Shown piece after piece: positions 10,723 to 44,156 of a stretch of DNA of 64,000 nt (position 1 is the first letter of the stretch; each line of letters starts with the position of its first letter). Origin of the DNA: Callorhinchus milii (lineage: Eukaryota). A model generated the notes under the pieces. The model was not told where the DNA came from, did no database searches, and saw only the letters and a list, made by a program, of their open reading frames with translations. Position numbers and translations under genes: made by a program. Where the stretch lies: the NCBI RefSeq assembly GCF_018977255.1, contig NW_024704743.1, positions 6,140,001 to 6,204,000 on the forward strand, in the 5' to 3' direction.

Positions 10723-12422
10723 CTAGAAACAATCTGGATCAATCATACCAGCTGCCATGAGCTCTCGGATTTTAATCTGATATGGAGTAGCTACGGGAAA
10801 ATTATTTGGTATCTGAAGCTCATAGCTTCTCTGACTCACAATTATACAACTTGCCATTCCATTTGGTGATGGATTTATTTTGTCAACTTTTCGCTTGCTG
10901 CTCATTCCAAAAAATGTCAGAAACACCGGCATAAATACGAGGCCATGAATTGCACCAAACAATATGACAAGAAACATGATTTTGAAAAATGTCCGAAATA
11001 TGTAAATGTTTGCAGCAGCCAACACAACAACACCCAGAATAGTGGAGAGCGCCCCCTGGATAATGGGATAGCCAAGAGTGTACAATGCTTCGATGGTACG
11101 TTCATTGGCACTTGCTTTCTCATTTGAAACAAATGCATAGGAAATATGGGCTGTGAAGTCAACTGAAAACCCAATACAAATAACCAGATTAATCATAGAT
11201 ATGGAGTCCAGATTAACATCCCACAGAGCCATGAAACCAGCCACACCAGCTAAAATAGAGGCGACAGCTAATGTCACCCACACAGAACAAATTGGATTCG
11301 GAATTAACAACAAGGCAACAACCAGCATTGCACCTGCTGCCACAGCCACATTCTGTATTGTGTTGATCTGTATAACAAGATATTGATCAAAGTAAATGAA
11401 CGCTGAATGATACACTTGTAAAGGGATTGTACAGCTCTCGGCCAGATCTCTCAGTTCAGTCATCATGTTTTTTTCGGCAATTGAGTCATTGACATTTTTG
11501 GTCTGAATAAAAAACCGTGATGCTGTTATGCTTTTATTATCTTGTGAGAGTTCAATATCTTGTTGAAACAAAGGGACAATCTTAAACAATTTAGGTAAAT
11601 TTGTTATGAAGGAATCAGACGCCGTTATGTCAATAGACATCAGTTTAGAAATGTCAATGTATGTTCGAAGCCAAGACTCTGATAGCTCTCTATCTACATA
11701 AATGTTATTTTCAAATTTGCCCATACAGCGTTCAATTTCAGTCTGAACACTGGTGTTCCAATAGTCCACTGATTCTGAGACTGATACCATGACCCGAGGT
11801 CCATATTGTGAGAAAAACATATCTTCATGGTCATAGAATTTAATCACATATGAATTGTCAGTGGCCAGATTTCTAAGATCAAATCCTTCCTGTAACTGGA
11901 AACAGCCATAGATACCACCTGCCAAATACCCTGCATACAGCAGTACCACAAATACCTTGGTCCATATAATAGTGAGGAATGGGCCATAATATTTCTTAAA
12001 GAAGAGATAAATTGGATGCTCTGTTTCAGCACCGGACATCTCATCATACTCCCCACCAACACAGCACATTCCATAGAATTTCGATTCTCCTGGTTGATGG
12101 TGCATTTGAATCTTCCTGAAAGTCAGCCAATGCCTGTTACTGTTTTCTCTTCTCCCATTCAGTGCCAGAACCGCCCCAAAAAACGTAATGTTGTAAATGA
12201 AGCAGAACAAAACGGTAGTACCTGTATACAAGCAAAATGACTGCACAGATCGAAAAGGTGTCATGACACCAATGTAAAAGGCTATCACATCAGTCAGAGT
12301 CGTTATGGTAATGGAAGAAGCAGCTTCAGCATATGTGGCTGCCATGCGATCTTCGATTTTAGCATGAACCTTTGTCTTCTGCCAACTGGAGAGCATAATG
12401 AACATGTCATCAACACCAATAC
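10723..12422 (-). CDS. PTCHD3: PTCHD3-like exon 4 (last): end of sterol-sensing domain, second luminal loop and C-terminal transmembrane bundle
   Basis: Acceptor tctatag|GTATTGGT (phase 1), open to TAG at 10723. Contains GIGVDDMFIM, SITITTLTD, LDSISMINLVICIGFSVDFTAH and FRTFFKIMFLVILFGAIHGL, typical of Patched-related proteins. Confidence 0.93.
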
Positions 12423-13364
12423 CTATAGATAAGAATAACAAATAATCAGAGCCCCACTGAGTAGAGAGAGTGGGATTTGGAAATACAACATCAACAAGTT
12501 CCTTGAAATTCTACTAATTTAAAGCATGAAATTGTATCAGAGCCCACATTTCTTATTTCTTTTAATAAATAATACTAATAATCTTTGCATTTGATATAGC
12601 ATCTATAATATTTAAAGTCTCAAGGTACTTTATTGTTGAATGTATTATGTATTTCTAGGTAGCCATGGAAGCCATCTTATTCACTGCACTGTCTCGCAAG
12701 CAATTGATCTAGAGAATTGCTACCGGAATACTGGAAGACTCTCCTTTATCTTTTCAAATACAGTCATGGTTTACTTACTATCAGGCAGAATGGAGCAGAA
12801 GGGGCAAGCCTGAATATATAATAATTCTTGCAATTGATGTCATGCCTTATGATGTCATTGAGATCTTTTAAACAGCTTCACAAGATTTTACTGTAAAGTG
12901 TAGTGACTGTAATTGTAGGCAATATGGGTCAAGCTGGGGATCTGTGGCAACTTAGAATTGTAGAGGCCTCAGTCACGTTTCCCTTGCATAAATTCCCTGA
13001 CTCTGAGCGGGGGTGGGAGGGGAGAGGAAACTGTAAGTACAGTCGAATATGAAGCCTGCTTCACATCCCCCGCCTTGCTCACCCCACTATTGGCAGGCGG
13101 GCCTTCTGCCACTCTGTCCCCACCCTCTGGAACTCCGTCCCACAGTCCCTCCGTCTTGCTACCCCACCCCCCACCTCGCCACCTTGAAGACCCACCTCAA
13201 GACCCTCCTTCCTTTTCGACTGTGCTTTCGATCTCCCTGCTTCCCCCCCTGCCCTCCACCCTCCCCCACCCCCAGCTCGGGTCCATAACTCTGTCTGTCC
13301 AGCACCTTGGGATGTCTCCCGATGAGAAAGGCGATATACAAATGGCTATTTTGTTGTTGTTGAG

Positions 13365-14919: not shown

Positions 14920-15108
<189 letters not shown>

Positions 15109-15178: not shown

Positions 15179-15300
15179 CTCATACAAGACACAATGGAAA
15201 AGAATATTGAAAGGAAATAGGTGATTGAAAATAGTGGTACGATTTCTTTGCTGCTTCCTTCAAACTCTGTCTGTCTTGATACGGAAGTGTAATACGAAAC
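15179..15300 (-). CDS. PTCHD3: PTCHD3-like exon 2
   Basis: Acceptor attacag|GTTTCG and donor ATGAG|gtaaag; VSYYTSVSRQTEFEGSSKEIVPLFSITYFLSIFFSIVSCM(R); 122 nt, phases 0 and 2. Not in the ORF track. Confidence 0.92.
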
Positions 15301-20545: not shown

Positions 20546-21259
20546 CTGAATATTTTTCAGCACTGTTGAGCGTTTCGGAATTTCATCAATAAACTTCGTC
20601 AGCCACCGCTCATTTTTTGGTGCGTTGTTATCTCGTAAATAATAATCAAGTCTAACGGCAGAAGCTGTTTTAATATAATTTCCCTCTAACTTCACTCCCC
20701 CCACAGACAAACCAATGAAACCACTACATTCTGTGCTATTCTGGACGGGATAAGTAAATTTAAAGCTCTCCACTTGACCAGCATCGTACTGTATACAGTC
20801 TAACATTACATTGGAGAAGCAGGAATCTCCTGCTTTGGCACAAAGACTGGAATAGTTATTCTTATCAACAACAAACCCTTTAACTTCCCCATCGAGCCGC
20901 AGAATCTCTTTAAATGCTGCCTCTGTGAGGACGCTGCCACCTTTAGCAACAGCGATGAAAGAAGCAAAGGTCCCCTCTGTGTAGAGCCTCGGCGCCGAGA
21001 AGGGCAGAGAATCATGAGTTGGAAAGTGTTTCATAATAAACTCTCTCTCAGACTTTGCCTGACCGTGAATAGGAGTGAACTGCTCCTCTATGTCATTCGT
21101 TTCATTTTGCTCAAAGAAATAAAACCCTGCGCCTAGAGCTGCAGAAATGATCAGAGGAATCACCAAAAACCACCATGGATATCGCCCAACGAGGGCTCCC
21201 AACTTCCCGAAAACTTTACAGAGAGGTTTCTCCAGACAGTCAGTGTGACACCGAGCCAT
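20546..21259 (-). CDS. PTCHD3: PTCHD3-like exon 1 (TM1 and first luminal domain)
   Basis: Kozak gaccATGG; MARCHTDCLEKPLCKVFGKLGALVGRYPWWFLVIPLIISAALGAGF...NDIEEQFTPIHGQAKSER; donor ATTCAG|gtaagt at 20546/20545; 714 nt, phase 0. The four exons total 2682 nt, or 893 aa plus stop. Confidence 0.93.
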
Positions 21260-21326
21260 GGTCTACACTGGGCAGTCAGCAGACTGAAGAAGGGAATGTT
21301 ACACGCAACGCTCGATTGCACCAGAG

Positions 21327-21362
21327 ATTGGTTTGAATAATAACATGCCACTCTGTGATTGG
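21327..21362 (-). promoter_or_regulatory. Two CCAAT boxes 31 bp apart, upstream of the PTCHD3 ATG (candidate promoter)
   Basis: ATTGG at 21327-21331 and 21358-21362; spacing is typical of tandem NF-Y sites. The transcription start is unknown. Confidence 0.3.
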
Positions 21363-22029
21363 ATTGAACAATGATCTGTGTCAGAAAGTATTGCACTTAA
21401 CGTACCATGTCTATTACAACGGTCTGGGTTTCTCCCTTCACACTTCATCCATAATAAACTCTACTTGGCCAGGTCTTTTATTAACTTATTGGAACATTGC
21501 AGTCATTCGTGCCTGCTTAAAGATTTCTTCAAGGTTACTTCAAATTGAATGTATAAATAATGTAGTAATAATCCTTGCACTTTATATAGTGTTTTATATG
21601 TTGGGAGGAGATCTCTGGAGTTATTGTAAATTGATTGTGTATTTTGCAGGTGAACCCAGCAGCCAGTTTGCACACAGTAATGTCCCACAAACAGTCAGGA
21701 AGTGAATAACCAATTTCATCAGAATCCCAGAGTTTGTGGTCAGGGTACTGCTGGAGTCTAACCAGCTAAATTCGCATTGCTTGCCATTGAGAGCACTGCC
21801 TAGCAAGCTTTCCTGCTGCTCGTTCAGCTAGGAGCACCCTACCCTTTAGGGCTTTGGCTTGCAGGAGCTGAGTGGTTGGATTCCCTGCTCCCAGTGACTA
21901 GTTTGCCCTTCCAGGTCCTGCCAATGAGCCTTGCTGGCTGTGCCGCAATCAGCAATGCCCTGGAGTTCTGCGGCCTAGTTTGGCTCCAAAGAGACCGCAC
22001 TTAGACTGCCCCAAAATGAGGATAGTCAA

Positions 22030-22852
22030 GTTTGACGGAAGCCATACTTTTTGGCCCTCGTCAACGTCTAAAATCTCACAGCTCTTACCTCCTCCACCTA
22101 CCCGACCTCCCCCTAAAACTCTCTGAACCCGTACGCAACCTAGGCATCAGGTTCGACTCCCAATTATCCTTCCTCCCCCACATTCGGTCCCTCACCAGCA
22201 CCGCCTTCTACCACCTCCGATGCATCGCCCGTCTCCGCCAATACCTCTCCCCAAAAGCCGCTGGAACCCTGGTCCATGCCTTTGTCACCTCTCAGCTGGA
22301 GTACTCCGAAGTCCTCCTCGCCGGTCTCCCATACACTACCATCCATAAAATCCAAATCATTCAAACTCTGCCGCCCGCATTCTCACCTGCACAAAACTGC
22401 GCTCCCCGACCACCCCAGTCCTTGCCAGACTGCACTGGCTGCCTATCCCAGAGAGGATCGATTTCAAGATCCTCACCCTTGTATTCAAGTCCCTGCACTC
22501 CTCTGCACTCCCTTACCTCTCTGACCTCCTCTCTCCTCAAAACAGTACCCATTGCCTTCTTTCCTCTGGTTCTGGACTCCTCCTTGTCCCCCGAGTCCTC
22601 TGCTCCATCCTCAGCAGCCGTGCCTTCAGCCACTATGCCCCGAAGCTCTGGAACTGCCTTCCTCACTCTCTTCGCCTCGCTCCCTTTCTTCCCATTTTCA
22701 GGTCTCTGCTGAAGACCTTTCTTTTTGACTGCGCCTTTGGTCACCTTCCTCCCCCTCCCCCCCCGGCGCGGCCCCGGGATCCATTACTGTAAAGTGCTCT
22801 GAGACGCCATCCGGTGTGGAGGGCGCTCTCTAAATTCAAGTTGTTGTTGTTG
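22030..22852 (+). mobile_element. L2 LINE 3' fragment with (GTT)n tail
   Basis: [26 protein letters not shown]; same subfamily as the 16053-16463 fragment. Confidence 0.9.
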
Positions 22853-23372
22853 TATGTCCTGAACAGAGGTAAAGCTGTGTTGTTTAGTGCAATTTTAATG
22901 AGGAAAATGTGAAATGTAAGGATTTGTTTTGAAATTCGATTAGCAGATTTACTGAACATGGAGATTTGACTGAGAAAGAAGGAGAAATGCCGACAAAGGC
23001 ATAACGCCATTATTGCATGCTATGAGAGGAAAGAAGGTCTGGAGATTTTAAGCACATCCACTTGCAACTCCTGGGAGGAGAAAGATAATAGGCAAGAACA
23101 CCAACCCTGTACAGGTGATGATGGCACACATCTACAAGAAGCTCCTTGACCTGCATTTCTTGGTCTTGGATGCTTTGGAATAGTTCTGTTAGCAGCAAGC
23201 ACATCAATCTCCACTTGAGCTGGATGAGTTTCAGGCAAATCATTGTTTGTAACTTCTTCAAGCTTTCTTTCTCAAGTAGGAATGTAGGATTTCGATGAAA
23301 ATAGCCAATTCCAACAATTGCACCAAATCCTTGTGCCACTTTCCACTGTTTTTTAATTGATTATTTTAACTT

Positions 23373-24730
23373 ACAACAACAACAAATTACATTTGTACAG
23401 TGCCTTTCACGTAAGGAGGTTGTCCCAAGGCGCTGGCCTATTAGGGATCCACACCCGAACTGGTGGTTGGGATCAGTAGTGGTGGAGGGCAGGGAGGGTG
23501 ACCGAAGGCATGGTTGAAGAGGAGGTTCTTGAGACAGGTATTGAGGGAGGCAAGGGAGGGGGCAAGGTGGAGGGACTGTAGGATGGAGTTCCAGAGCGTG
23601 GTGGCAGAGACGCTGAAGGCCCGTCCATCAATGGTGGGGTGGGCAAGGTGGGGGTCGTGAAGCAGGCCGAAGGCCGCTGAGTGGAGGGAGCGGACAGTTT
23701 GACAGGGGGTTAGGGGGTCACAGAGGTAGGGAGGAGGAAGGCTGCGGAGAGCTTTGATGGTGAAGACCAGGGTCTGTGAGTGATGGGGAGCCAGTGGAGC
23801 TGGGCGAGGATGGGGTTGATGGGGTCACGGAGCCTGGTCGGGAGTGGACATGGGCTGCAGAGTTCTGTATGATCTGCAGCCTGTGGAGGGCGGAGTTGGG
23901 GGGAGCTGACAAGCAGGGAGTTTGCATTGTGAGCCTGGATGTGATTACCTTGTGGATGAGGGACTCGGCAGCCTGCAGTGAGAGACAGTGGCAGAGCTGG
24001 GCCATGTTGCGGAGCTAGGGAAAGGCGGAGTGATTCATGGCACAAATGTGCGGGATGAAGGACAGTTGAGGGTCGAACAGGACGCCGAAGTTCTGTATTG
24101 GCTCCGTGAGGTGTCAAGTGCATCCATGAAGGGTGATGATGTCAGCCCTCGAGGTATGGAGGCGCTGATGGGAGCCAAGCAGGAGGGCCTTGGTCTTGTT
24201 GACATTCGACTGGAGAAAGTTAGCTCTCATCCAGGACTTGATGTCCGACAGGCAGTCTGTGAGGACAGTAGTGATCCTGGAGTCGAGGGTGGAGGCGGAG
24301 AAGTAGAGTTGGGTGTCATCTGCATACATGTGAATGACACCCAATGGATGATGTCACCAAGGGGGAGCATGTAGTTGATGAAAAGGAGGGGACCAAGGAC
24401 AGAGTCCTGAGGGACGCCACATGTGATGGTGTGGGGATTGGAGGAGCAGCCATAAGGGAACACAAAGTGGAGACAGTGTGAGAGGTAGAATTTGAACCAG
24501 GCAAGGGCAGGTCTGTGAAGGTTGAGCTGAGAGGAGAGGCGGTAGAGGAGGATAGAATGGTCGACAGTGTCGAAGGCAGGAGAAAAGTCGAGGAGGACAT
24601 GGAGGCAGGTCACAGATGGACAGAATGTCGTTAGTGACTTTGACCAGGGCTGTGGGCAGCACAGAAACCCGATTGAAAGGGTTCATAGAGGGTATGGCGG
24701 GAGAGAAAAGAGCGAAGCTGGGACACAAAG
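23373..24730 (-). mobile_element. L2 LINE ORF2 3' part with tail
   Basis: [46 protein letters not shown]. Confidence 0.9.
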
Positions 24731-26444
24731 ACTTGTTACAATGACACCCTAATTAAACCATTAAAGATGTTAATTTGGCCTCCCCCCAGCCCCATATCAA
24801 ATTGTCAACCTTCCTGTTCAAAACAATTGCAAGTCATGCAGGAACTTCCTTCTGACGTGGGTTTTTACCTTTGTGTAAAAGTATTCTGACTGTAAAAATA
24901 ATATCATGTAAACAATGTAACCCTATGCTTTCACCCAGCAAGGCTTCAGTGATCCAGAAAACTGGACATATTATTCTAACATTTAGTTTCCTTATACCAA
25001 CCTCAAAGGCATTAAATCATATGATGGCCATCACAAATAAACTTCCTGGAAACATTCCTGATATTGGCCTTCAGCCATCAAACTCGACCGTTGCAACTCC
25101 CTTCCTCTACCCTCTGACTCACCTCATCTTTATCTGTCTTTAGAAGCTGTCTAAAAGCCTACTATTCTGACTGTGCTTGCAGTGATTACCCTTCTCCCAC
25201 TTCCATTATTCTCTGTTCTCATTGCTGATGAATTGCGCTTCATAAATGCAAGTTGGTGTTATCTGTCAATTTGAATCAATTTGAATCAAACTAAAACGAA
25301 GGTCCCTTGGACGAATAGGGAAATTGAAATAAATGACGTAAAAGTGGGGAATCTTCACTAAATGTAAAGATAATAATACAAAAGGAAATCTGGCAGCGAA
25401 TATAAAATATAGAAAGGAGGGAGAAAAGGAGATTCAAAAGGCCGAGGGGGGATAGGAAGGAACATAAAGAAAAATAATAAAGCATTTTATAAACACATGT
25501 TGAAGGAAGTCAATGAGGAAATGGTAGATGCTTTGACTACAGTTTTTTGAACATCCTTGGATACGAAAGTTTTGTGAGGAGACTGGAGGCTAGCTAATGG
25601 AACACTGCTGTAGAGGTGATGTAAAGGTGATGATATTTCAGCTCTACGTTGATTGCTACCCTAAGAAAGGTCTGGCACCTCTCTTACTTTCCAGAGCAGA
25701 CTCCCCGCCTAAGCCATTTCCCTTACAGTCTGCTCACCTTGAAATGTCTTTCTGAAGTGAAAGGTGCTATACAAATGTAATTTGTTGCTGTTGTTGTTTT
25801 ACCACTCCGTGTTTTTTTACTTCCCATTGTTTTGAGAAATTTCCCTGGTTTTGAAAACTCTCCCTTCTCAGACTCCATCCTCTGACACTAAACAGAAATG
25901 TGAAAGACCCAATAAACACAGGATATCTGTAAGAATTATGAGTGTTGATTGCTGGAGCTTCATCCCTGAGGCCAGGAACACATTCAGTTTCAATCGGGGA
26001 CAACAATGGTGGTTTCTTTAGCCTTCCTCTGATCAGGTAGATTGATGACTCCTCTGTGAGGTTGCTCAGTCAGAGTTGTTAATTGATGTTTGTTGTGCCA
26101 TTAAAACCGGAGGTGGGGTCTCCTTGGAGCTGAATTGGTGACGTGCCTGGCAATGGAATATAGGAATCAAGCCAATCCACTGTGACGGTCTCTAGTCCGG
26201 TTCCTGAGACAGGTGGGCCCGCAGTATTCCAGGGGCTGATGACACGTAACCTGGCTCATCGGCAGGACCTGGAAAGGCAGACAAGTCACTGGGGGCAGGA
26301 AGTCATCCCACTCAGCTCCTGATAACCCTGCAAGCCAAATCCTTAACAGGTAGGGTAGTTCTTTCTACCTGGAAAGGCAACGGGGAAGCTTGCCAGACAG
26401 CAATATCAATAGCAAGCTATGCAGTTTTAGCTGGTTTTGGTATC

Positions 26445-27030
26445 TTGTTTGACCCTCAACTGTCCTGTTTACTCCACATCCGTAACATGACCCACTCTGC
26501 CTTTCCCCACCTCCGCAATATTGCCCGGCTCCGCCACTGTCTCACAGCTCAGGCCGCCAAGACCCTCATACGCACATTCATAACATGCAAACTCCCTGCT
26601 TGTCGGCCTCCCCAACTGTTCCCTCCATAGCCTACAGATCATCCAGAACTCTGCAGCCCATGTTTTCTCCCGCACCAGCCTCCATGACCCTATCACCCCT
26701 ATCCTCGCTTGATTCCACTGGCTTCCCATTACACAGAGAATACAGTTCAAGATCCTGTTCCTCACTTTCAAAGCCCTCTACGACCTTGCTTCCCCCTACC
26801 TCTACGACCTCCTAACCCCTTACCAACCTGCCCACTCCCTCCACTCAGCAGGCTCTGGCCTGGTTCACATCCCCTGCCTTGGCCACCCTACTATTGGCGC
26901 GTGGGCTTCAGCCACTCTGCCCCCACCCTCTGGAACTCCATCCCGCAGTCCCTCTACCTTGACCCTTCTTTGCCTCCTTCAAGATCCATCTCAAGACCCT
27001 TGTCTTCGACCATGCCTTTGGTCATCTTCC
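26445..27030 (+). mobile_element. L2 LINE 3' fragment
   Basis: [15 protein letters not shown] and HWLP-type remnants. Confidence 0.85.
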
Positions 27031-27139
27031 TGTACCGCGATTTCCCCGTTGAAACTATTAGCAATGCTCTATGACATCGCCATGCTCTCCTGCCTCTATT
27101 AAAAGAAAAATAACTTTTTCTATCCCATCAATTTAAGAT

Positions 27140-27700
27140 AGTTATCAAACGAGCAACTGGGGAGGTTAGGAGGAATTTTTCACACATTTAGGATATAGAA
27201 TGCCCTGCCTGGAGCAATCGGATTGTTCAGACAGAATCCATATTAGCTTTCAAAAAAGAATTAGATAAATACCTGAAAAGGAGTAACTACAGGGGTATGG
27301 GGAAAGGGCAGGTAAATTTCCCCATATCTCAATCCAATAAATCGGACTGAAATGATTGCTCTTAAAAGAGACAGCACAGTCATGATAGTCCAAATGATCT
27401 TCTTTTGTGCTTCAAATTTCTATGCTTGACACTAAACGAAAACCTCTGCTTTCGTTTGGTAAAGTTGTAAACTTATAGAAAGTCACTTTTTGGTTTAGTG
27501 GAAAGTGCTTGCTCTTTAGCATGAAATTAGAAAAAAAATACAGAAGTACAGTGAAGAATACCTGCACATGCATCGAAACATAGGAACAGGAGTAGGCCAT
27601 TCAGTCCCTTGAGCCTAGTTTGCCATTCTATCAGATCATGACTAATCTGTACCTCAACTCCATTTACCCACCTTTGCTCCAAATCCCTAGATACCTGCCC
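27140..27700. mobile_element. CR1 LINE 3'-end remnants (+ about 27140-27430; - about 27578-27700)
   Basis: gttaggaggaatttttcac...ttagataaatac; reversed tail cataggaacaggagtaggccattcagtccc. Confidence 0.6.
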
Positions 27701-28822
27701 ATTTATTGGGTTTATGTACATTTTTTTAGTAAATAAAAGTAATTTAGAGTCGCTTCTGTTTTCTTTCCTTGCTCTTTCGCCACCATCATTCCAGACAAAT
27801 TCCGTACATCTGTCGAATGCTCAGTAGTCTAGTTTGGATACTTCTTAGCACAGCGATAGGGTTGAGTGTGTGTAAGATACCCAGTTGTCCAAAAGCAATC
27901 CTCGATAATGCTTTCAGACTAGACACATTTGGCTCAAAATTCATCTGCCCTGAAAGAGTTAAAGGATTTTAAAATTTAAGAGTAAAAAATTTTTCATGGA
28001 AATGTTAACACCACTCAATTCCAGTGCGTGAATGATAGGCTGTAGAATGCAGTACAATACGATTTACATTTCTATATCACCTTTCACGTCGCAAGGACTT
28101 CCCAAAGCACATTCACAGTTGTGGGTGGGCACCTGAGCTGGGGTAGGTGCCAAGGGGAAAGATGATCGAGCATAGCCAGGAGAAAAGGATTCAGTGACGC
28201 TGGAACAATTTTAATAGTGGGGATGCTGAAACCTCCACGCTGTTAATAATAATAATAATAATCCTTGCATTTGATATTGTGCCTTATCACATCTTCAACA
28301 ATCCCGAGCCCTTTGTGGGTGCCAGTCTACCACTGCCTGGTTACCCCAAAAATCTAGGAATAAGTCGAAGAAAACAATAGTTGCTATGCAAGTGTTCATA
28401 GCTTTTCACCGACTTGTTTTTTTAAAAAAATTACTTAGCTTGAGGCTCTAAATCAGAAAAGGTGCTAATCGTACTGCATGACATGGTTAACCTTCCTCTT
28501 CAAATAAAATGTTTTTGAGACTCAGGTACACTTATAGGCACTTCAGTCTGCCCTCGGAATGGTTTTGCCACCTCAGTGAAAGTGTTACGACTGAAAAAAT
28601 TAATAGTGGTTACAATTAACTTTTCTGAACTTATTATGTAAATACTGTAATACTGTGCTTTCATGCTGCAAACTTTTCAATGATCTGGTCAATGGCAAAT
28701 CTAATTGTAACATTTGTTTCCTCATAGCAGTGCTTTCATCCTGCAAAGGTTTCTGTGATCTTTATGTCATATCAATCACACAGCCATGCAGTCTTATGAT
28801 TGAATGTTGCTTTGTTCTGGGA

Positions 28823-29433
28823 GGTGGGTGGAGAAGCACAAAAGCTGCACACACCTCCTGACCTATCTGTATTCCATGCTTGTATTTAAAGCATGAAGTG
28901 CCTGCGACCAAATAGCAGGAAAGGGAGCTGGAGGCATTGGACTGTTGCATGTTGACACGGTGACATGCTTGGTGGACAACAAAGACAGTCCCACAGAAAG
29001 TGAGGGAGTCCCAGCGCAAAGGTAAGACCAAACCATGAGAAGAAGACAGTGTGTTTGTACTGAATGTGAGGTCCAATACAATACATTTACACTTATATAA
29101 AACTAGCTGTACGTGTTAGATAGATATATTTCTTATTGCATAAGGGATATGGGGATAAGGCAGGGTTATGTTATTAGCTGGAGTTAGATTAGATTGAATG
29201 GTGGGGCAGGCGCGACGGGCCGAATGCCTACTCTTGCTCCTACATGTTATGTTTTGTTATGTTATGTTGCGGCTACGCTTACAACCAGTTTCATTTAATT
29301 GGTCTTCTCTCTTTCGTCTGCCATTTTTATTTGCCCTTGAAAGGCTGATCTTCGCACTTCATGCTTTAAATACAAGCGTGGAATTCAGGTAAGGTCAGGA
29401 GGTGCGTGCAGCCTTTGTGCTTCTCCACCCACC
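28823..29433. repeat. Inverted repeat pair, about 79-bp arms (28823-28901 and 29354-29433), about 90% identical
   Basis: ggtgggtggagaagcacaaaagctgcacacacctcctgacc...gcttgtatttaaagcatgaagtgc is the reverse complement of the second arm. Confidence 0.9.
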
Positions 29434-30309
29434 GGTCACAGCGAAATCTGGAAAACTGACATTCGGTTATCTCTTAAGAATAAGAAAATGTGCTGTTGAA
29501 CTCATTAGCATCCCTTGTTCACATATCCTTTTGGGAGGACTCCTGTGGGAGGACACCTAGTTGGGAGGACTCTTGACACATAGACAGACATTTTGTCTTT
29601 ATTAGTATAAGATGTATTTCTCTAATTCATTATTAATTATTATTAATTATAATTATTAATTATACAAATGTAATTTTGTTTTTGTTGTTCTCTAGAAGGG
29701 TGTGTGACCTCTGTTGTTACTTTGTTGCAGAATACCATATATACCTTTTTTGGGGCTTAATTAAAGCATTTTAAAAAATATCTTTTGATACAGCTCATCA
29801 ACGATAGGTGATCCCCAGAAAAAAAATATGCCTATGACGCTCCCCATACAAGACCTTTCCGATGGGGTAAAAGCCATGTCTCTACGTCAATTGGTTATTG
29901 CATTCTTGGCAGACAGACAGGCATTTCGTCTTCATTAGCAGAGAAGACTAATAATAATTCTGACATTTAATATAGTGCCATTCGAATCAGGAGGCAGTCT
30001 CAGAACGCTTCAAAGGAGGCAATATTAATCACCTGGTGCTGGACTGGTCAGTTGGTAGCATGTTTGTCTTTAAGTCTTTAAGTTCAAGCCTGACACTGGG
30101 ACTTTGAGCTCACAGGCTAAACTGAAATATTATATACTAATGATCTGAATTCCCATACCAGTGTAAGATAGTTACTTTTGCAGTTAATACCAAATTGGGG
30201 GGAACTGTGGAATTATAGGAGGCAACAAAGATGCTATAAAGAGAGCTTGATAAGGTATACACATAGGTTGATAACAGACAAATTATGTTTAATACAGATA
30301 AATGCAAAG

Positions 30310-30609
30310 TAATAATAATCCTTGCATTTCATACAGCGCTTTTCATGTCTTCTAGACGTCTCAAAGCGCTTCACAGGATAGGTTGTAAAGTGACTGTATA
30401 TTTGCGGGCGAAACGCGGCAGCCAATTGCGCACAGCAGTGTCCCACAAACAGCCGTGGATTGAATGACCAATTTATTATTGTTTTATTTTGAGGGATTAT
30501 TATCAGGCGTTTGGAGGAAGGAAACTTGCCCAAGGTTTCACTCTGCCGGGAATCGAACCCAGGTCTCGCTTGCAAAGCGAGTGCTCTAACCACTGAGCTA
30601 CAGGACTCC
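30310..30609 (-). mobile_element. tRNA-Ala(UGC)-headed SINE with L2-type tail, inserted in a CR1 remnant
   Basis: Reverse complement of GGAGTCCTGTAGCTCAGTGGTTAGAGCACTCGCTTTGCAAGCGAG...GGTTCGATTCC; (ATT)n tail. Confidence 0.9.
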
Positions 30610-31038
30610 ATAGGAAGTCAATGTACTTCCATGGTTGGATTTGAAAAAAACACTTTAGCAGCTGGTGAATCCCATTCCTTCACAGGATTCACTGTAGCGT
30701 GTAATGACTGTTTATAGTGTAGGTGAGTGCGGCAGCTAATTTGCGCACTATCTCACAAATAGCAATGTTTCATAAACAGCCACAAAGTGAGTGATAAATT
30801 TTATCTGGGGCGTTGTTGGCCAGGGCACCGAGAGAAACTGCCCTATCTTTTCAAATTGCGCCATAGGATCTTTGAGATTCACCTGAACAAGCAGATGGGA
30901 CCCTAGTTAAAGTCTCACGATGACACCTCTTACAATGCAGTGCACCTCCAGCACTGTACTGGAGCATCAGCCTAGACTATGTGAGTTTAAATGTAGAGTT
31001 ATTACATTAACCCTACATTAACCCTACATATTACATGT

Positions 31039-31365
31039 GGAGTCCTGTAGCTCAGTGGTTAGAGCACTCTCTTTGCAAGCAAGACACCTGGGTTCGATTC
31101 CCAGCGGGATGAAACCTTGGGCAAGTTTCCTTACTCCACACGCCTAATAATGATCCCTCAAAAAAAGACAATAATAAATTAGTCATTTCAATCCACGACT
31201 GTTTGTGGGACACTGCTGTGCGCAATTGGCTGCTGCATTTTGCCCACAAATATACAGTCAATTCTCTTTACAGTCTATTCTGTAAAGCGCTTTGAGACGT
31301 CTAGAAGACGTGATAAGACGCTATATCAAATGCATGGATTATTATTATTATTATTGTTATTATTA
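31039..31365 (+). mobile_element. tRNA-Ala-headed SINE, full length
   Basis: A box tagctcagtggttagagc, B box gggttcgattcc, core gctgtgcgcaattggctgc, (att)n tail. Confidence 0.9.
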
Positions 31366-31516
31366 GCTACATTATGTCACATTAATAAGAATAAATGTAG
31401 ACCCCAGTGGAATTTTAGCCCAAATAACAATTACTTTCCAACACCCATTGACTGCTGCAATATTCAATGCCATTCTTTTTGTTTCTTCAGTTTACGATAG
31501 GTATCAACAGCAAAAC

Positions 31517-31574
31517 ATGGATAAAAATAATGAAGAAATAGCTATTGTTGGAATTGGATGCAATTTTCCCGGAG
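31517..31574 (+). CDS. pks1: Type I iterative polyketide synthase, coding exon 1 (KS N-terminus)
   Basis: aacATGG Kozak; MDKNNEEIAIVGIGCNFPG(G), the canonical KS start; donor GGAG|gtagga, phase 1. Not in the ORF track. Confidence 0.92.
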
Positions 31575-32812: not shown

Positions 32813-32966
32813 GAGAAGGCATTGAAAACTTCTGGAGAGTTCTTCTTGAGGGAAGAAACTGCGTTGTGGATATCCCACCAGATCGTTTTGATACACAATT
32901 CTGGTATGATCCCGATGACAACAAGCCTGGAAAAATGCGCACAAAGCGAGCGTCTCTCATTGAAGG
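32813..32966 (+). CDS. pks1: PKS exon 2 (KS)
   Basis: ctgtaacag|GA GAA GGC ... EGIENFWRVLLEGRNCVVDIPPDRFDTQFWYDPDDNKPGKMRTKRASLIE(G)|gtaatg; phases 1 and 2. Confidence 0.93.
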
Positions 32967-33200: not shown

Positions 33201-33361
33201 GTTCAATGACTTTGATTACAAGTTGTTTGGCATTAACAACACAGAAGCTAACTGCATGGATCCCCAGCACAAGCTTCTCTTGGAATGCACGTACAGAGCT
33301 CTCGAAAATGCAGGGATGCCCCAGGAGGATCTTAGTGGGAGTAAAACAGGGGTTTTTATTG
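33201..33361 (+). CDS. pks1: PKS exon 3 (KS)
   Basis: ttgatag|G TTC AAT ... FNDFDYKLFGINNTEANCMDPQHKLLLECTYRALENAGMPQEDLSGSKTGVFI(G)|gtgagt; MDPQ motif; phases 2 and 1. Confidence 0.95.
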
Positions 33362-35022: not shown

Positions 35023-35226
35023 GGCTCATGAATAGAGACTTTGAAGCGATATTGAATAATTCAGCCAACAGAATCAGCCACTATAATGGCACTGGTACAG
35101 CAATGAGCATAGCTGCAAATAGGATTTCGTTCACCTTCAACTTTACTGGACCATCACTGGCTATAGACACAGCGTGCTCTTCATCTCTGGTCGCTCTACA
35201 CTACGCTTCTCAGGCCATCAAACAAG
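35023..35226 (+). CDS. pks1: PKS exon 4 (KS active-site Cys)
   Basis: ttctttag|GG CTC ATG ... AANRISFTFNFTGPSLAIDTACSSSLVALHYASQAIKQ(G)|gtacca; phases 1 and 1. Confidence 0.96.
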
Positions 35227-35904: not shown

Positions 35905-36086
35905 GCGATTGTGAAATGGCTGTTTGTGGAGGAGTGAGCTGCATCATTGAACCGTGTGTCAATGTAGTGCTTAGTAAAGCAAAGATGATATCTCCAGATG
36001 GAATGTGCAAACCATTCTCTAAGAAAGCTGATGGGTATGGGAGAGGAGAAGGATGTGGAATTCTTCTGTTGAAACCATTGGCAAAG
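35905..36086 (+). CDS. pks1: PKS exon 5 (KS)
   Basis: tttcag|GC GAT TGT GAA ATG ... KPFSKKADGYGRGEGCGILLLKPLAK|gtaaac; phases 1 and 0. Confidence 0.95.
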
Positions 36087-38590: not shown

Positions 38591-40542
38591 GCACTGAAAG
38601 ACAATGATCACATCTGGGGTGTCCTAGTGCACAGTGCTATCAATCAAGATGGCAGATCAGTTACACCTATCACCAGACCCTCACAAACACAGCAGGAAGA
38701 ACTGTTGAAGTGGATTTACCACAGGTATGTTGATCCATCTCAGATACAGTACATGGAGGCTCATGGAACTGGAACTCCAGCTGGTGATCCTACAGAAGCC
38801 GGCAGCATATCACACATTGTTGGTCAGTCCAGGACATCAAACCCTGATCCGCTCATCATAGGCTCTGTCAAAGGGAATGTTGGTCACACAGAGTCAGCTG
38901 CAGGAGCCGCAGGTTTAATCAAAGTTCTCCTGATGATGCATCATGGCAAAATTGTACCATCTCTCCACTACTCTGAGGAGGATTCAAGCATCAATGCAAA
39001 GGCTTTGAATCTACATATTCCAACTAGTGTGGAAAACTGGGAAGAGCGTGGGGAGATGGGTAGGATGGCAGGAGTCAATTCATTTGGGTTTGGGGGAACA
39101 AATGCTCACGCAGTGGTGAGACAGTACAAGCAGCTTGCCCGGCTCAACTGTGCACAGAAACCACTGGAGATATTTGTCCTTTCAGCTGCCTCCCAGAAAT
39201 CAATTCAAGTGATGATAAAAGACACAAGTAAGCAAATAAGTCAAAGTGATGATACCGCTTTCCATAGTCTGGCATATACATCTGCTTGTAGAAGAAGCCA
39301 CGCAAGTTATAGATACAGAAAAGCCTTTGTAGTTTCTTCCCTCAATCACCTACAGCAGCAGCTTAAATCAGCCACAGTTACAGATGTTGCTCGGATAAAG
39401 ACAAGTCCAAAGATCGTATTTGTGTTCTGTGGCAACGGTGTTGCCTATAGAGGGATGTGTAAACTGCTGATACAAACAGAGCCAGTGTTCAGGACACAGA
39501 TTGAAGAGATAGAAAAAATTCTCCAACTACACACACCCATCAATCTAATAGATTTAATTGAAAATGACTATGATGACTTCACAAAACCCGAGATAGCACA
39601 GCCATTGCTCTTTGCTGTTCAGGTGGCAATGGTTTCTCTTTTGGGGTTTTGGGGAATCCAGGCTAACCTTATGATTGGACATTCTGTTGGCGAGGTTGCT
39701 GCAGCACATTGTGCTGGGACACTGTCCTTGCACGATGCTGTAAAGGTGATTTACTACAGAAGTGTATTGCAGTCAACAGTAACGGGAGGCAGAATGCTGG
39801 CTGTTAGCAATTTGCCTGTGTCAAATGTGTCAGACAGACTTGTTCCATATTCGGGGAGACTCTGTATTGCTGCATTCAACAGTCCCTCCTCTTGCACAGT
39901 GTCAGGTGATGCCGGTGCAGTGGACAAACTGTATACAGAGTTATCCACCGCATTTGGTGACAAAAATATATTCCTTCGCATTTTAGATGTTCCAGCAGCT
40001 TATCACAGTCACTTGATGGAGCCAATCATACAGCAGGTAGAAGAGAAAGTAGGTAACTTACATGAACAAGAAGCACGCTCAAAGATTATCTCCACAGTTA
40101 CAGGTCAGGTGGCTTCAGGAGATGACTTTCTCACAGGCAAATATTGGGCCCGGAACATTCGAGATCCTGTTGCCTTTGAAAAAGGGATAAGAGCTGCTGC
40201 TGCAGAGGCTGAAGACGCAGTATTTGTAGAAATAGGTCCAAGACGGGCCTTGCAAAGATACATCACAGAAATCCTAGGCAATCAAACTCGAGTTTTTCCT
40301 GCAGTTCAGCCAGACAGAGATTATGAAACTCATCTATTGGTTCTATCAAAACTCTTTGAGCTCGGGTACAATCCCAACTGGCAAAATGTCTATGTTGGTC
40401 GTGAAACTCTCCCCACTGTTTATCCTTCTTATGTGTTTGATCACACAAAGCAGGAATTAAACTTTGAAGAACTTAGGCAAGATAATGACAAGGTAGTTTC
40501 TTCCCATCACCCCCTACTCTCTAGTGTAAGCAAGGACGGCAA
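38591..40542 (+). CDS. pks1: PKS exon 6, part 1: KS C-half, KS-AT linker, AT domain, start of DH (to frameshift 1)
   Basis: ttaacag|GCA CTG AAA; EAHGTGTPAGDP and KGNVGHTESAAG (KS His residues), GVNSFGFGGTNAH, VFCGNG, GHSVG (AT Ser), YYRS, VPAAYHSH, VEIGP, HHPLL. Confidence 0.95.
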
Positions 40543-42008
40543 GAATATAACTTCACCTTGTCAACATTGACAGTACCTTATGTAGCTGAACACAAAAACA
40601 ATGGAGTGCCCATACTTCCCGGTGCCTTTTATGTAGAACTTGGTGTGGCTTCCGTCCTGGCAAGTATTGAACCAAAGGTACCACTCACTTTGTGCCGGAT
40701 CAGCGCAAAGTTTCTGAATCCTTGTATAATCCACCAGAACTCAGTTGAGCTCAAAGTGCACCTCAACAGAGAAGATAAACTGATCAAATTTAGTGTTTTA
40801 TCAACTTCTGGCATTTATGCCACAGGGGAGGTACTACAGGTCACTGAGTGTGTAACTGATGAAAGTAATATCTCGGTTGAGCAAATTTTCCAAAGATGCA
40901 AATCGAAAGCAAAGCCAGAGGACATCTATAAAGAACTCTCTTCTTTAGGCTTTCAGTATGGATCAGTTTTTAGGCAACTTGGGGATATCTTCTATGGAGA
41001 GAATTTGAAGGAAGCTATAACATGCATTAGAGTACCAGAAGAGCTCATGTCACAGATTCATCAATACTCCTTTCACCCAATCATTTTAGACTATTTTCTA
41101 CAAATGGCTGCTGTTGTAACAATGATGTCTGCAGTCTCCAGCATAGGGTTCCCCACATCTGTAGGGAGCTTGGTTATTCATCGCCCTTTACAACAAGAAA
41201 TGCTGATGTATCTGAGGATCAGTAAAATCACTCCAGATTATCTAGAGGTCTGTGGGGGCTTCACAGATACAAAGGGCATAATCATTGCCGAACTGAAAAA
41301 TATCAGAACCACATTTCTAACCGTGAACAATGGAGGAGGAATCAATGATTTGTTCTATGAAAGTATCTGGGTAGAAATTCCTCACCTTCAAGAGGGCAAA
41401 AATCTTGCTTCTGGCCCAAGATCACTCGTGTTTGGTGATAACTATGGAGTGGCTGAAAGCCTCAAGAAATTCCTGCACAGTCAGTCCACATATATTCCTT
41501 ACCAGGAATATGACAATTTCACTGGTACAGAAGTTGTGGATCTTCTGAGAAAGTACAATGTCCATGACCTGAATAGCTATGAGGAGGTGTTCTTCCTGTG
41601 GGGGACTGTAAACCTGACTGACCAGACCAGCACAGCAGTGGTGCAGGAGGTCAGTAGCTGCTGTGAGATTTATCGTCAGATCATTCAGTTAGTTCGAGGG
41701 AAAAATGGCACAAAATCTGTTAGAGTAATAACATACAGGACATCTGAAAAAACAGTGGATCAAATTACTCCAGGGTTTGCCCTGTGGGGTATGACCAGAT
41801 CATGCAGTGCAGAAATTCCAGAGGTTTTATTTCAGATCATTGATGTCAGCTCTATCAGTGATGCAGATATGGCAGCATTAGCTAATGTAATAGTCTTGTC
41901 TGATGGGGTGACCCACCCTGAGGTAATGATCAGCCAGGGAATGTTGCATGCTTCCACGATCACACGAACATCCCTTATAATCTCAGACAATACCAATGGT
42001 GGGACTTT
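40543..42008 (+). CDS. pks1: PKS exon 6, part 2: dehydratase and pseudo-methyltransferase/structural KR region (between frameshifts; right boundary approximate)
   Basis: EHKNNGVPILPGAFYVELG (DH HxxxGxxxxP), LGFQYGSVF, HPIILDYFLQ (DH Asp), GFALWGMTRS. Confidence 0.9.
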
Positions 42009-44156
42009 TATTCTGGTTTTGGAAATGTCCTTTTCCAGATCATGGATCCTTACAATGTTGTGGATTTGCATGCCAAACCTCAAGAGAACAAAATGAGTGC
42101 ACCCACAAAACAAAGTGTACACATTGAATTGGATGCAATTTGCATGCATTCAGCGGATTACTTCCCAGTTAGTGTCTCTGATCTAAACTATGGGAAGACG
42201 TTGTACTGGAGCAAAAGTGTGTTTGGTGGGCACAATCTCGTGGCTCTGGACTTTAGTGGTACAGTCACTGCTGTTGGCAGTGATGTGAAGAGTTGTAAAG
42301 TGGGAGATCATATTGTTGCATGTTACCCGGTTCCTGCAGCTTCAAATGTCAGCCTTCCTGCTGTTGTTTGTTTCAAAAGCAAGAAAGTACCATTGCTGAA
42401 GGAGATCCCTTGTGTGTCATACTTCACAATAGCATGGGAAATATTCCATAATCTCTTACCAAAACCCAAACATCAGAAACGCTTGGTAATTGTTTCCATG
42501 ATACCTGATTCGTGTTTGAGTAAAGTCTTGTCTCTGACAGCCAGGGAGTCTGGCTGGAGAGTTCAGGTTCACCCAGACTCCAATGACTTTGTACAGATTC
42601 CTGTTCACTTTGATGCTTTGGTTTTATTGCCACCTTTAGAGAAAACCTCTATTTCAAAATATGTCAATGGTTCTTCTGCTCGGGATATTGTTGTTCTGCT
42701 GGACAACAAGCAGATGCTTGATATTTCCCAAGACATTCTCCAAAATGAAAAGGACAATGTCTGTATTCATGTTCTGCAGTTAGCCAGTATATTTCAAAAG
42801 GGCTATCTCACGAAATCTGCAAATCGTATCTATAAATGGATGAGAAAAATGTATTTAGGGATGAATCGTTTTGATCTATCAAAAATGGTCTTCCAGCAAA
42901 GAATATCAGACATGGTTGAGTGCAGGAATGAGTCGTACTTTACATGCAGAGAAGTCTCCATTGCAGTTCTGAAGAGCACCACCAAGACTAGGATGTCAGA
43001 GATTCCAATGCACTGCAGACAAAAGCAGCTCTTTAAAAGTGATGCTGTGTATATAGTTGCTGGAGGACTTACCGGTCTTGGCTTTGAAACTGTGAAATTC
43101 ATTGCCAACCATGGCGGTGGCTATATTCTTGTTCTTTCAAGGAGCTCTCCATCGAAGGAGAAGCAGGAGGAATTTAGCAAACTACAGAATGAAATTGGGA
43201 CAAGGATCATTTGCGTGGCCTGTGACATCTCAGCTCTGTCAAATGTCGAGAAAGCAATCAGTAATTTTCTTCACTCCTTCCCAAAGGTTTCTGTTAAAGG
43301 AGTGTTTCACAGTGCTGTGGTCTTACATGATTCACTCTTTGAAGATCTAAATAAATCATTGTTTGATAAGGTTCTTGTTCCCAAAATTGCTGGGGTCTTG
43401 AATCTTCACTATGCAACACAAGGCCTCCAGCTGGAGTACTTTGTGTGCTTTTCCTCAATTGCTTCATTCTTTGGATCATCTCTACAGGCTAACTATTCTG
43501 CAGCAAACTCATTTCTTGATTACTTTGTCCACTTTAGGCGATACCATGGGCTTGTGGGGCAATCTGTGAACTGGGGAGCACTGAATCTCGGGCTGCTGCT
43601 CAATAAAGACAACGTTCAGAAATTTCTGGAGTTGAAAGGGATTTTGACAATAGAAATTTCTGAAATCATTGAAAGCTTTGAACGTTGTTTGACCCTGAAC
43701 AATCCACAACAAGTAATCTGTAAATTTGATTTCTCAAATATATATGTTAATGTCTCCCAAAACCCATCAAGCAGGAGACGTTTCCATTCAATTGTGCAGG
43801 AAGAGATCAGCAAAGGAAATGTTAAAGTGGTGGTCAGTGATTCATCAATATCTCCTGAACAGTATATAATAACCTTGTTGTCTGAAGTGAGTAACACAGA
43901 TCCTACAGACTTTACCAAAGAATCTACTCTCTCCAGTTTTGGCATTGATTCCATGATAGGAATGACCATACAGAATCGGATTCACCAGGAAAAGAATGTC
44001 AGTGTGCCACTAGTAACATTTCTTGATCCAAAATCAACAGTGTCCACTCTGGTATCACTGTTTGAAGAGGAAGGTTTCCAAGTTCATTCTGGGGAAACAT
44101 CTATGCCATTGAACAAATCTTTCGAGGAAGTTCCTGATGAGTTTACTCAGTTGTAA
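42009..44156 (+). CDS. pks1: PKS exon 6, part 3: ER-like domain (probably inactive), KR, ACP; stop at 44154-44156
   Basis: LDFSGTVTAVGSDV (ER fold, no GGVG loop), YIVAGGLTGLG, VFHSAVVLHD, FSSIAS...QANYSAAN (KR), FGIDSMIG (ACP Ser). No thioesterase after the ACP. Confidence 0.95.
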   Translation, partial: YSGFGNVLFQIMDPYNVVDLHAKPQENKMSAPTKQSVHIELDAICMHSADYFPVSVSDLNYGKTLYWSKSVFGGHNLVALDFSGTVTAVGSDVKSCKVGDHIVACYPVPAASNVSLPAVVCFKSKKVPLLKEIPCVSYFTIAWEIFHNLLPKPKHQKRLVIVSMIPDSCLSKVLSLTARESGWRVQVHPDSNDFVQIPVHFDALVLLPPLEKTSISKYVNGSSARDIVVLLDNKQMLDISQDILQNEKDNVCIHVLQLASIFQKGYLTKSANRIYKWMRKMYLGMNRFDLSKMVFQQRISDMVECRNESYFTCREVSIAVLKSTTKTRMSEIPMHCRQKQLFKSDAVYIVAGGLTGLGFETVKFIANHGGGYILVLSRSSPSKEKQEEFSKLQNEIGTRIICVACDISALSNVEKAISNFLHSFPKVSVKGVFHSAVVLHDSLFEDLNKSLFDKVLVPKIAGVLNLHYATQGLQLEYFVCFSSIASFFGSSLQANYSAANSFLDYFVHFRRYHGLVGQSVNWGALNLGLLLNKDNVQKFLELKGILTIEISEIIESFERCLTLNNPQQVICKFDFSNIYVNVSQNPSSRRRFHSIVQEEISKGNVKVVVSDSSISPEQYIITLLSEVSNTDPTDFTKESTLSSFGIDSMIGMTIQNRIHQEKNVSVPLVTFLDPKSTVSTLVSLFEEEGFQVHSGETSMPLNKSFEEVPDEFTQL

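What the first reader, a model, noticed from the sequence alone, without database searches (positions are those of the whole stretch)
10723..44156. Head-to-head polyketide synthase and RND-family (PTCHD3) transporter: candidate vertebrate biosynthesis-and-export gene unit
Seen: a PTCHD3-like gene (-) and an iterative type I PKS (+) are divergently arranged, with ATGs about 10.3 kb apart (21259 and 31517) and no other gene I can recognise between them. Established: Patched-family proteins belong to the RND superfamily, and in mycobacteria RND MmpL transporters encoded beside pks genes export the lipid product (ppsA-E/mmpL7, pks2/mmpL8). Vertebrate PKSs of this type make psittacofulvin polyenes in budgerigar and are needed for otolith formation in medaka and zebrafish; I know of no identified exporter for their products and no known substrate for PTCHD3. 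Inference: PTCHD3 may export or present the PKS product, making this a two-gene biosynthetic cluster. From memory, PTCHD3 is dispensable in humans, where the neighbouring PKS is only a remnant, which would fit. The synteny itself may already have been noted; the functional pairing is the hypothesis.
Basis: partly seen in the sequence, partly recalled or inferred. Interest (0 to 1): 0.88.

Follow-up and report, generated by a model that had tools for sequence, protein, structure and literature searches.

The report
Animal polyketide synthase with its transporter
In the elephant shark a polyketide-making enzyme gene and an orphan Patched-family membrane transporter gene sit head-to-head and were copied together six times, and another eukaryote carries the two kinds of protein fused in one gene, so the transporter likely exports the enzyme's still unidentified lipid product.

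Summary
Observation confirmed. An intact 893-aa PTCHD3 (ATG 21259) and an iterative KS-AT-DH-KR-ACP synthase (ATG 31517) diverge, with only repeats found between them. The synthase's two frame breaks are probably assembly errors. The window holds one of six head-to-head units between ACBD5-like and RAB18-like genes; the other five have start codons 2.0-4.5 kb apart. New evidence: metagenome locus L103 has one stop-free 1990-codon frame joining a full Patched module to KS-AT-DH, with GT-AG introns downstream. A 2026 preprint reports this architecture in most cnidarian PKSs. Papers place the pair together in a seastar and beside most animal PKS homologues, raise both together in mussel mantle, and put zebrafish ptchd3a in the otic progenitor field. 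Adjacency and fusion are thus in print as passing remarks; I found no paper proposing export coupling. Against: losses within the array are not paired, PTCHD3-like genes persist without PKS, the fused module is not shown to be PTCHD3's orthologue, and no transport is shown. Best reading: an animal synthesis-export module working like mycobacterial Pks-MmpL (0.6), broader than vertebrates. The scan's notes held no earlier finding of it.

The parts
20546..21259 (-). PTCHD3 exon 1 (start codon, first membrane helix, first extracellular domain)
15179..15300 (-). PTCHD3 exon 2
   Evidence: GT-AG borders
14922..15067 (-). PTCHD3 exon 3 (sterol-sensing domain)
10723..12422 (-). PTCHD3 exon 4 (rest of TM4 motif GxGxDD, second extracellular domain, TM10 motif GFSVDF, stop)
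21260..31516 (.). Divergent intergenic region, 10,257 bases, mostly LINE fragments and tRNA-headed repeats; 2.0-4.5 kb in the five sister units
31517..31574 (+). PKS exon 1 (start codon)
32813..32966 (+). PKS exon 2 (KS)
33201..33361 (+). PKS exon 3 (KS)
35023..35226 (+). PKS exon 4 (KS catalytic cysteine motif DTACSSS)
35905..36086 (+). PKS exon 5 (KS)
38591..44156 (+). PKS exon 6: KS end, AT, DH, degenerate ER-like region, KR, ACP, stop; no thioesterase
40542..40543 (+). One-base frame break in the assembled PKS, likely an assembly error
   Evidence: filled in contigs of runs X1 (depth 48.3 of 57.8) and X4; open in P0252; also present in unit 3
42005..42008 (+). Second one-base frame break in the assembled PKS, likely an assembly error
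   Evidence: filled in contigs of X1 and X4; absent from units 2-4 and from P0252

Best explanation
The window holds one of six head-to-head copies of a polyketide synthase gene and a Patched-family (RND-type) transporter gene, and the transporter likely moves the synthase's lipid product out of, or onto the surface of, the cell that makes it. Step 1 (shown): the synthase has intact KS, AT, DH, KR and ACP motifs and no thioesterase. Step 2 (inferred from domain content and the parrot enzyme): it iteratively builds an unsaturated, amphipathic acyl chain from malonyl-CoA. Step 3 (predicted): PTCHD3 folds as a 12-helix NPC1/Patched-type transporter and keeps both acidic membrane motifs. Step 4 (inferred): the two are expressed together from the shared upstream region and act together at the membrane. 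In the fused form (L103; cnidarian PKSs in the preprint) the synthase would hang on the transporter's cytoplasmic tail. Step 5 (inferred, untested): PTCHD3 carries the product to the outer leaflet or lumen, where in fish it triggers otolith mineralisation. Where PKS was lost (placental mammals) PTCHD3 became dispensable.
For: Fusion: L103:748-6717 is one stop-free frame with Patched/sterol-sensing, KS, AT and DH hits, followed by intron-split DH, KR and ACP. Its Patched part aligns along the whole of the window protein (27% over 847 columns, E 6e-87) with both acidic motifs. The preprint 10.64898/2026.04.08.717340 states that most cnidarian PKSs contain a patched domain (section 12 read). PMC4604110 lists three Acropora PKSs as 'other-KS-AT-DH-KR-...' (passage). 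Co-duplication: 6 of 6 PKS copies in the array face a PTCHD3 copy head-to-head. Ascaphus has consecutive locus tags (FKM82_007116/7117) and a 721-kb Cetorhinus contig holds both. Wall lizard has five Pks and five Ptchd3 copies (passages). PTCHD3 neighbours 'almost all' animal homologues of a clam PKS (section read). Seastar PKS1 and PTCHD3 lie in one 56-kb interval (table passage). Expression in print (passages): mussel pks15 and patched3-like rise together in coloured mantle; zebrafish ptchd3a is widespread in the otic progenitor domain and lost in otolith-less dlx3b/4b mutants; pks1 is expressed in the otic vesicle. Medaka PKS sits at the apical face and its product is lipophilic and acts non-autonomously (section read). 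Fold: model pLDDT 85, TM-score 0.75-0.79 to NCR1, NPC1L1, NPC1 and PTCH1. TM10 motif in 104 of 104 aligned vertebrate proteins. No PKS in placental mammals (passage); PTCHD3 nulls are normal in human and mouse (abstracts).
Against: No transport or co-expression was measured for this locus. Losses within the array are not paired: units 5 and 6 keep intact PTCHD3 frames beside broken PKS copies, and unit 3 has a nearly whole PKS beside a PTCHD3 fragment. Several sharks and rays show two or three PTCHD3-like clusters against one PKS cluster (clustering at 90% hides close copies). PTCHD3-like genes exist where PKS is reported absent: mouse sperm and a sponge (P0418; no sponge PKS). In a quick tree the fused Patched module joins mollusc and hemichordate PTCHD3-like proteins (SH-aLRT 98), not the vertebrate clade, so strict orthology is not shown. 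The fusion's KS lies on the vertebrate side of 31 bacterial KS only at SH-aLRT 89, with a long-branch warning and no fungal or FAS outgroup. Only 1 of 78 metagenome loci held any PKS, though only 18 were 8 kb or longer. My search for long Patched proteins found no fusion. Medaka PKS made an active product in a fungus without PTCHD3. Overexpressed human PTCHD3 sat in the ER (abstract). Same contig is not adjacency, and co-duplication is expected for any genes 2-5 kb apart.
Confidence: 0.6

Rival explanations
1. Linkage without shared chemistry: the two genes were ancestral neighbours, share enhancers or a short divergent promoter region, and are copied together because they are close; the fusion is a lineage-specific accident.
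For: The array lies in a conserved ACBD5-RAB18 block. Unpaired losses in units 3, 5 and 6. PTCHD3 retained without PKS. The window's intergenic region shares only 30 bases next to the PTCHD3 ATG, plus repeats, with the sister units, so no conserved shared promoter was found.
Against: An in-frame fusion reported for most cnidarian PKSs and seen in L103, plus linkage in an echinoderm and across animal homologues, is more than ordinary vertebrate synteny usually gives.
Confidence: 0.22
2. PTCHD3 is a functional partner but not the exporter: it anchors the synthase at the membrane, supplies or flips a lipid acceptor onto which the chain is offloaded (the synthase has no thioesterase), or senses the product as a receptor.
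For: No thioesterase domain. Medaka PKS is held at the apical face by unknown means. Fusion and co-expression support partnership, not direction. The closest folds include importers and a receptor (NPC1L1, PTCH1).
Against: The product must reach the lumen. Both acidic motifs are conserved. The bacterial precedent couples an RND protein to export (abstract of PMC1238737). The cnidarian fusions carry their own TE, so offloading does not explain them.
Confidence: 0.15
3. The elephant-shark array is decaying: all six PKS copies are pseudogenes and the pairing here is a relic.
For: Every assembled PKS copy has at least one frame break; units 5 and 6 have large deletions and stops, and unit 2 a 229-base repeat insertion. 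In X1 part of the depth at 40542 (9.5 of 57.8) does not show the extra base.
Against: An intact 2107-aa protein with the window's N-terminal exons is on record (P0252). X1 and X4 contigs fill both breaks. All ten catalytic and carrier motifs searched are present.
Confidence: 0.03

Closest known systems
Mycobacterial Pks-MmpL coupling (PpsE-MmpL7; PMC1238737, abstract read)
   Same: Type I PKS plus an RND-superfamily membrane protein; proposed coupling of synthesis and export of a hydrophobic polyketide. MmpL chains appear among the fold matches (TM-score 0.54-0.61).
   Different: The transporter here is of the NPC1/Patched branch (TM-score 0.75-0.79), about 11-12% identical to MmpL chains. The genes are divergent and intron-containing, not an operon. 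Interaction and export are not shown.
Vertebrate iterative PKS (medaka OlPKS, zebrafish pks1, budgerigar PKS)
   Same: KS-AT-DH-KR-ACP order, about 2100 aa, no thioesterase; 47-68% identical to 77 other vertebrate PKSs; ACBD5-RAB18 neighbourhood as in wall lizard.
   Different: Six copies here; the product and tissue in a chimaera are unknown. No direct comparison with the named medaka, zebrafish or budgerigar sequences was run.
PTCHD3 / Patched-related (PTR) proteins; NPC1, NPC1L1, NCR1, PTCH1
   Same: 12 long helices in a 1+5, 1+5 pattern, two extracellular domains, sterol-sensing domain, GxGxDD and GFSVDF motifs.
   Different: No substrate is known to me for PTCHD3, and my searches found none (listing only). 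No solved PTCHD3 structure. Proposed cargo is a polyketide, not cholesterol.
Cnidarian Patched-PKS fusion proteins (bioRxiv 10.64898/2026.04.08.717340; Acropora 'other-KS-AT-DH-KR-TE' in PMC4604110)
   Same: The same two kinds of protein, in one chain; L103 shows this architecture directly in DNA.
   Different: Separate, divergently transcribed genes in the window. The reported fusions carry a TE. The passages I read give the Patched module no function. L103's host animal was not determined.

Membership tests
PTCHD3 (Patched/RND sterol-sensing transporters) | Groups with vertebrate PTCHD3 by sequence | tested here: met
   56-69% identical to 102 non-chimaera vertebrate proteins, nearly all annotated PTCHD3-like; vertebrate clade SH-aLRT 100
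PTCHD3 (Patched/RND sterol-sensing transporters) | 12-helix RND fold with sterol-sensing domain and two extracellular domains | tested here: met
   AlphaFold model pLDDT 85; Foldseek TM-score 0.75-0.79 to NPC1-family and PTCH1; Pfam Patched and Sterol-sensing. Predicted, not solved.
PTCHD3 (Patched/RND sterol-sensing transporters) | Acidic residues in TM4 and TM10 | tested here: met
   GIGVDD at 328-333 and GFSVDF at 745-750; TM10 motif in 104 of 104 rows; TM4 ends in DD in 96 and DN in 7 of the 103 rows printed
PTCHD3 (Patched/RND sterol-sensing transporters) | Transports a lipid | not testable with these tools
   needs an assay
MmpL family | Closest sequence and fold relatives are MmpL proteins | tested here: not met
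   Pfam MMPL hit is weak (32 bits) against Patched 153 bits; MmpL chains rank 39 and lower. It may work like MmpL but is not one.
Vertebrate iterative type I PKS | KS-AT-DH-KR-ACP with catalytic motifs, no TE | tested here: met
   Pfam; 10 of 10 motifs found in P0252 (motif wording recalled)
Vertebrate iterative type I PKS | Open reading frame | tested here: inconclusive
   Two one-base breaks in the assembly; filled in X1 and X4 contigs and in P0252; raw reads not seen
Synthesis-and-export gene cluster (Pks-MmpL type) | Conserved physical linkage or fusion of synthase and transporter | tested here: met
   6 of 6 units head-to-head; 31 of 33 species on one contig; fusion in L103
Synthesis-and-export gene cluster (Pks-MmpL type) | Correlated loss of both genes | tested here: inconclusive
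   Not paired within the array. One placental protein (hedgehog P0268) lacks the TM10 aspartate and has a long branch, 0.88 against 0.16-0.28 in other tetrapods; it is a single, divergence-biased example.
Synthesis-and-export gene cluster (Pks-MmpL type) | Co-expression in the producing cells | not tested
   No data for this locus; same-tissue reports in zebrafish and mussel come from papers
Synthesis-and-export gene cluster (Pks-MmpL type) | Transporter required for export of the product | not testable with these tools
   needs knockout or co-expression

The most novel reading that the evidence does not exclude
Animals have carried since the cnidarian-bilaterian ancestor a dedicated polyketide synthesis-and-export module: fused in one chain in cnidarians, a divergent gene pair in bilaterians. 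PTCHD3 is the exporter of the otolith-nucleating and pigment polyketides and may serve carbonate biomineralisation from corals to fish. Human PTCHD3 is the orphaned half left after placental mammals lost the synthase.
Probability: 0.4. Interest if true: 0.9.

Novelty: new variant of a known kind. Interest (0 to 1): 0.76.

Why it matters
It would give an orphan human-family membrane protein a substrate class, explain why PTCHD3 nulls are healthy, and supply the missing export step for the polyketide that starts ear-stone mineralisation. It would be a rare biosynthesis-plus-transport gene unit in animals, parallel to mycobacterial Pks-MmpL. It is directly testable: a zebrafish ptchd3 knockout has a scorable phenotype at one to two days, and the fused protein offers one construct in which to trap the unknown product.

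Tried and rejected
1. Complex prediction of PTCHD3 (6-838) with the PKS carrier domain (1998-2085): no answer, score 0.00, alignments not used; no evidence either way. 2. Expression at this locus: no RNA holder listed among 24 runs. X4, guessed to be RNA, covered exons 2 and 5 at one depth with little cover of unique introns, but no splice joint was listed, so I do not count it. PTCHD3 cover in runs was not obtained; co-expression here stays open. 3. Search for long Patched proteins with the vertebrate profile: 1 hit among 5720 candidates, a Neospora protein without PKS domains. None of these 151 proteins (150 representatives plus that hit) held PKS sequence, and none of 120 PKS hits held Patched sequence. 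These searches are word- or rank-limited. 4. ESM Atlas with the fusion frame: only generic PKS clusters under 0.9. 5. The 79 bacterial loci near the fusion's KS showed no Patched-like neighbour, but the queries are too distant to see MmpL. 6. The careful KS tree did not finish; only the quick tree is cited; the opossum row dropped out at the BLAST step and only 28 of 74 bacterial locus KS were used. 7. pN/pS among five PTCHD3 copies was 0.35-0.69 on 5-22 synonymous changes, too few to tell whether copies beside dead PKS genes are relaxed. 8. No CpG-island-type bidirectional promoter at either ATG. 9. The Ras family search listed no match at the locus (150 of 374 candidates scored); a RAB18-like exon was found by motif instead. 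10. The gene tables of PMC10261724 are not among held supplements, so I could not check whether pks1 falls with ptchd3a. The supplements of the bioRxiv preprint (Fig. S15 architectures) are closed, and the figures of PMC9894158 (Fig. 4D) are not held; all bear on the claims. 11. The budgerigar paper was not held. 12. The scan's earlier notes held nothing on this pair.
Full report
1. Observation. The window is G000:C2:6140001-6204000. Protein names point to the elephant shark, Callorhinchus milii. The minus-strand gene has four GT-AG exons giving 893 aa, identical to P0242 (XP_007899353.2). The plus-strand gene has six exons from 31517 to 44156 with KS, AT, DH, KR and ACP and no thioesterase. 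Between the ATGs, 1 of 26 frames hit Pfam, a reverse-transcriptase fragment, and the Rfam hits are tRNA-like heads of a high-copy repeat.

2. Is the synthase alive? The assembled last exon has two one-base breaks. Contigs of two runs from different studies fill both: at 40542 X1 (depth 48.3 of 57.8) and X4, near 42006 X1 and X4. P0252 (XP_007899352.1, 2107 aa, accession next to the window's PTCHD3) has the window's N-terminal exons and an open frame. Contigs can come from sister copies, which are 98.6-99.3% alike in this exon, so a broken allele is not excluded, but assembly error is more likely. All ten motifs searched (KS, AT, DH, KR, ACP; wording recalled) are present. The ER-like region gave only a weak ADH_N hit; I infer it is inactive, which would favour a polyene-type product as reported for the bird enzyme (passage).

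3. The window is one unit of six. Mapping 464 kb shows six PKS copies, each facing a PTCHD3 copy head-to-head: three units in one orientation and three inverted. ATG spacings are 10.3, 3.8, 4.5, 2.3, 2.0 and 2.0 kb. An ACBP-domain exon lies at 6.047 Mb and a RAB18-like exon (motif recalled) at 6.442 Mb, as in the wall-lizard Rab18-Acbd5 interval with five Pks and five Ptchd3 copies (PMC10990284, passages). Five PTCHD3 copies have open frames of 861-893 aa; unit 3's is an exon-1 fragment. Units 5 and 6 have clearly dead PKS genes, and unit 2 has a 229-base repeat insertion. Losses are therefore not paired unit by unit. Products acting in trans would allow this, but it is not support. The window's unit shares its big PKS exon at 98% with unit 2, while small exons are 85-92% alike and introns and intergenic DNA mostly do not align. 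I infer an older duplication with later gene conversion.

4. Linkage elsewhere. Of 33 vertebrate species present with a contig length in both top-120 hit lists, 31 have the two proteins on a contig of the same length; the two exceptions are sturgeons. This shows same scaffold, not adjacency. Ascaphus has consecutive locus tags and a 721-kb Cetorhinus contig holds both. [quoted passage not shown] Seastar PKS1 and PTCHD3 share a 56-kb interval (PMC12330192, table passage).

5. A natural fusion. A preprint notes in one sentence that most cnidarian PKSs contain a patched domain (section 12 read), and Hojo et al. list Acropora PKSs with an unnamed N-terminal domain (passage). My protein searches did not retrieve such proteins. 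A metagenome scan with a PTCHD3 alignment gave 78 loci, of which 1, L103, held PKS sequence. L103:748-6717 is one stop-free frame: Patched and sterol-sensing domains, then KS from residue 912, AT and DH. DH, KR and ACP continue across GT-AG introns, so the gene is eukaryotic, and the junction lies inside one frame rather than being made by a gene model. The Patched part aligns over all twelve helices with both acidic motifs. By the established topology of this family its C-terminus is cytoplasmic, which would hang the synthase under the transporter (inferred). Limits: one contig; host not determined; the module groups with mollusc and hemichordate PTCHD3-like proteins rather than the vertebrate clade (quick tree, 40 rows); the KS placement beside vertebrates is weak.

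6. The transporter. The model (pLDDT 85, pTM 0.82) has twelve long helices in two repeats and two extracellular domains. It matches NCR1, NPC1L1, NPC1 and PTCH1 best and MmpL proteins more distantly. The TM10 motif is kept in 104 of 104 vertebrate rows. The one placental protein I obtained (hedgehog) has lost that aspartate and sits on a long branch, a single and biased example. Placental mammals have no PKS (PMC10764717, passage), and human and mouse nulls are normal (abstracts).

7. Expression and physiology from papers. Medaka PKS lies at the apical face of the otic epithelium; a few wild-type cells rescue the vesicle; an ethyl-acetate extract of fungal mycelia expressing it rescues mutants (section 18 read). 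So a lipophilic product reaches the lumen, and synthesis does not need PTCHD3. Zebrafish ptchd3a is widespread in the otic progenitor domain at about 12 h and depends on Dlx3b/4b, whose mutants lack otoliths (passages); pks1 is in the otic vesicle (passages). The stages differ, and I did not check which zebrafish ptchd3 copy neighbours pks1. In a pearl mussel pks15 and patched3-like rise together (passage).

8. Mechanism and rivals. Most likely (0.6): coupled synthesis and export, working like PpsE-MmpL7 (abstract) but built from the Patched branch. Rivals: linkage without shared chemistry (0.22), partner in anchoring, offloading or sensing (0.15), decaying array (0.03). Shown: gene structures, array, fusion frame, motifs. 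Predicted: fold. Inferred: product class, co-expression here, direction and fact of transport.

9. Novelty. Adjacency, co-duplication and fusion each appear in print as side remarks. In the held library, searches pairing PTCHD3 or patched with PKS terms listed 1 to 35 papers each. I read passages or sections of the five most relevant, and none proposes PTCHD3 as the exporter. Most subscription journals are not held, so this is not proof of absence. I rate it a new variant of a known kind, interest 0.76.

Noticed in passing
window 6349-6794 (+): Two joined fragments of the PKS big exon (134 bases at 91% and 314 bases at 98% identity) lie on the far side of PTCHD3, flanked by LINE sequence; a remnant or a small rearranged copy.
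   Followed up: partly
window 52502-52753 and 56751-57002 (-): Decayed copies of PTCHD3 exons 2-3 inside a local tandem duplication of about 1.9 kb units (51.4-59 kb) that recurs at C2:6.323-6.324 Mb.
   Followed up: partly
window 20546-20700 (PTCHD3 residues 195-236): 17 of the 31 listed residue differences between unit 1 and unit 2 fall in this stretch of the first extracellular domain; pN/pS there is about 1.6 on only about 4 synonymous changes. It could be cargo-related divergence or an unconverted old tract.
   Followed up: partly
window 10723-10890: The window's PTCHD3 has a private C-terminal tail of about 55 residues unlike the sister copies' shorter tails, predicted disordered.
   Followed up: no
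G000:C2 units 1-4 PKS big exon: One-base deletions are shared between copies (units 1 and 3 at the site matching 40542; units 2, 3 and 4 at the site matching 42682), in short base runs; systematic assembly error or spread by gene conversion.
   Followed up: partly
window 30310-30610 and 31035-31355: An inverted pair of tRNA-headed repeats (88% alike) sits just upstream of the PKS start codon.
   Followed up: no
window 59258-60721 (+): A 487-aa open frame of a LINE-type reverse transcriptase by inspection, suggesting a young element.
   Followed up: no
L113:60-3431 and L115:947-3751: Stand-alone, intronless Patched proteins that group with the fused module of L103 (SH-aLRT 100) but end without PKS domains: fused and free forms coexist in that clade.
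   Followed up: partly
L120 (G000:C3:29019968-29021544): Another Patched-family gene of this genome also shows a frame break in its last exon, in line with frequent small errors in the assembly.
   Followed up: no
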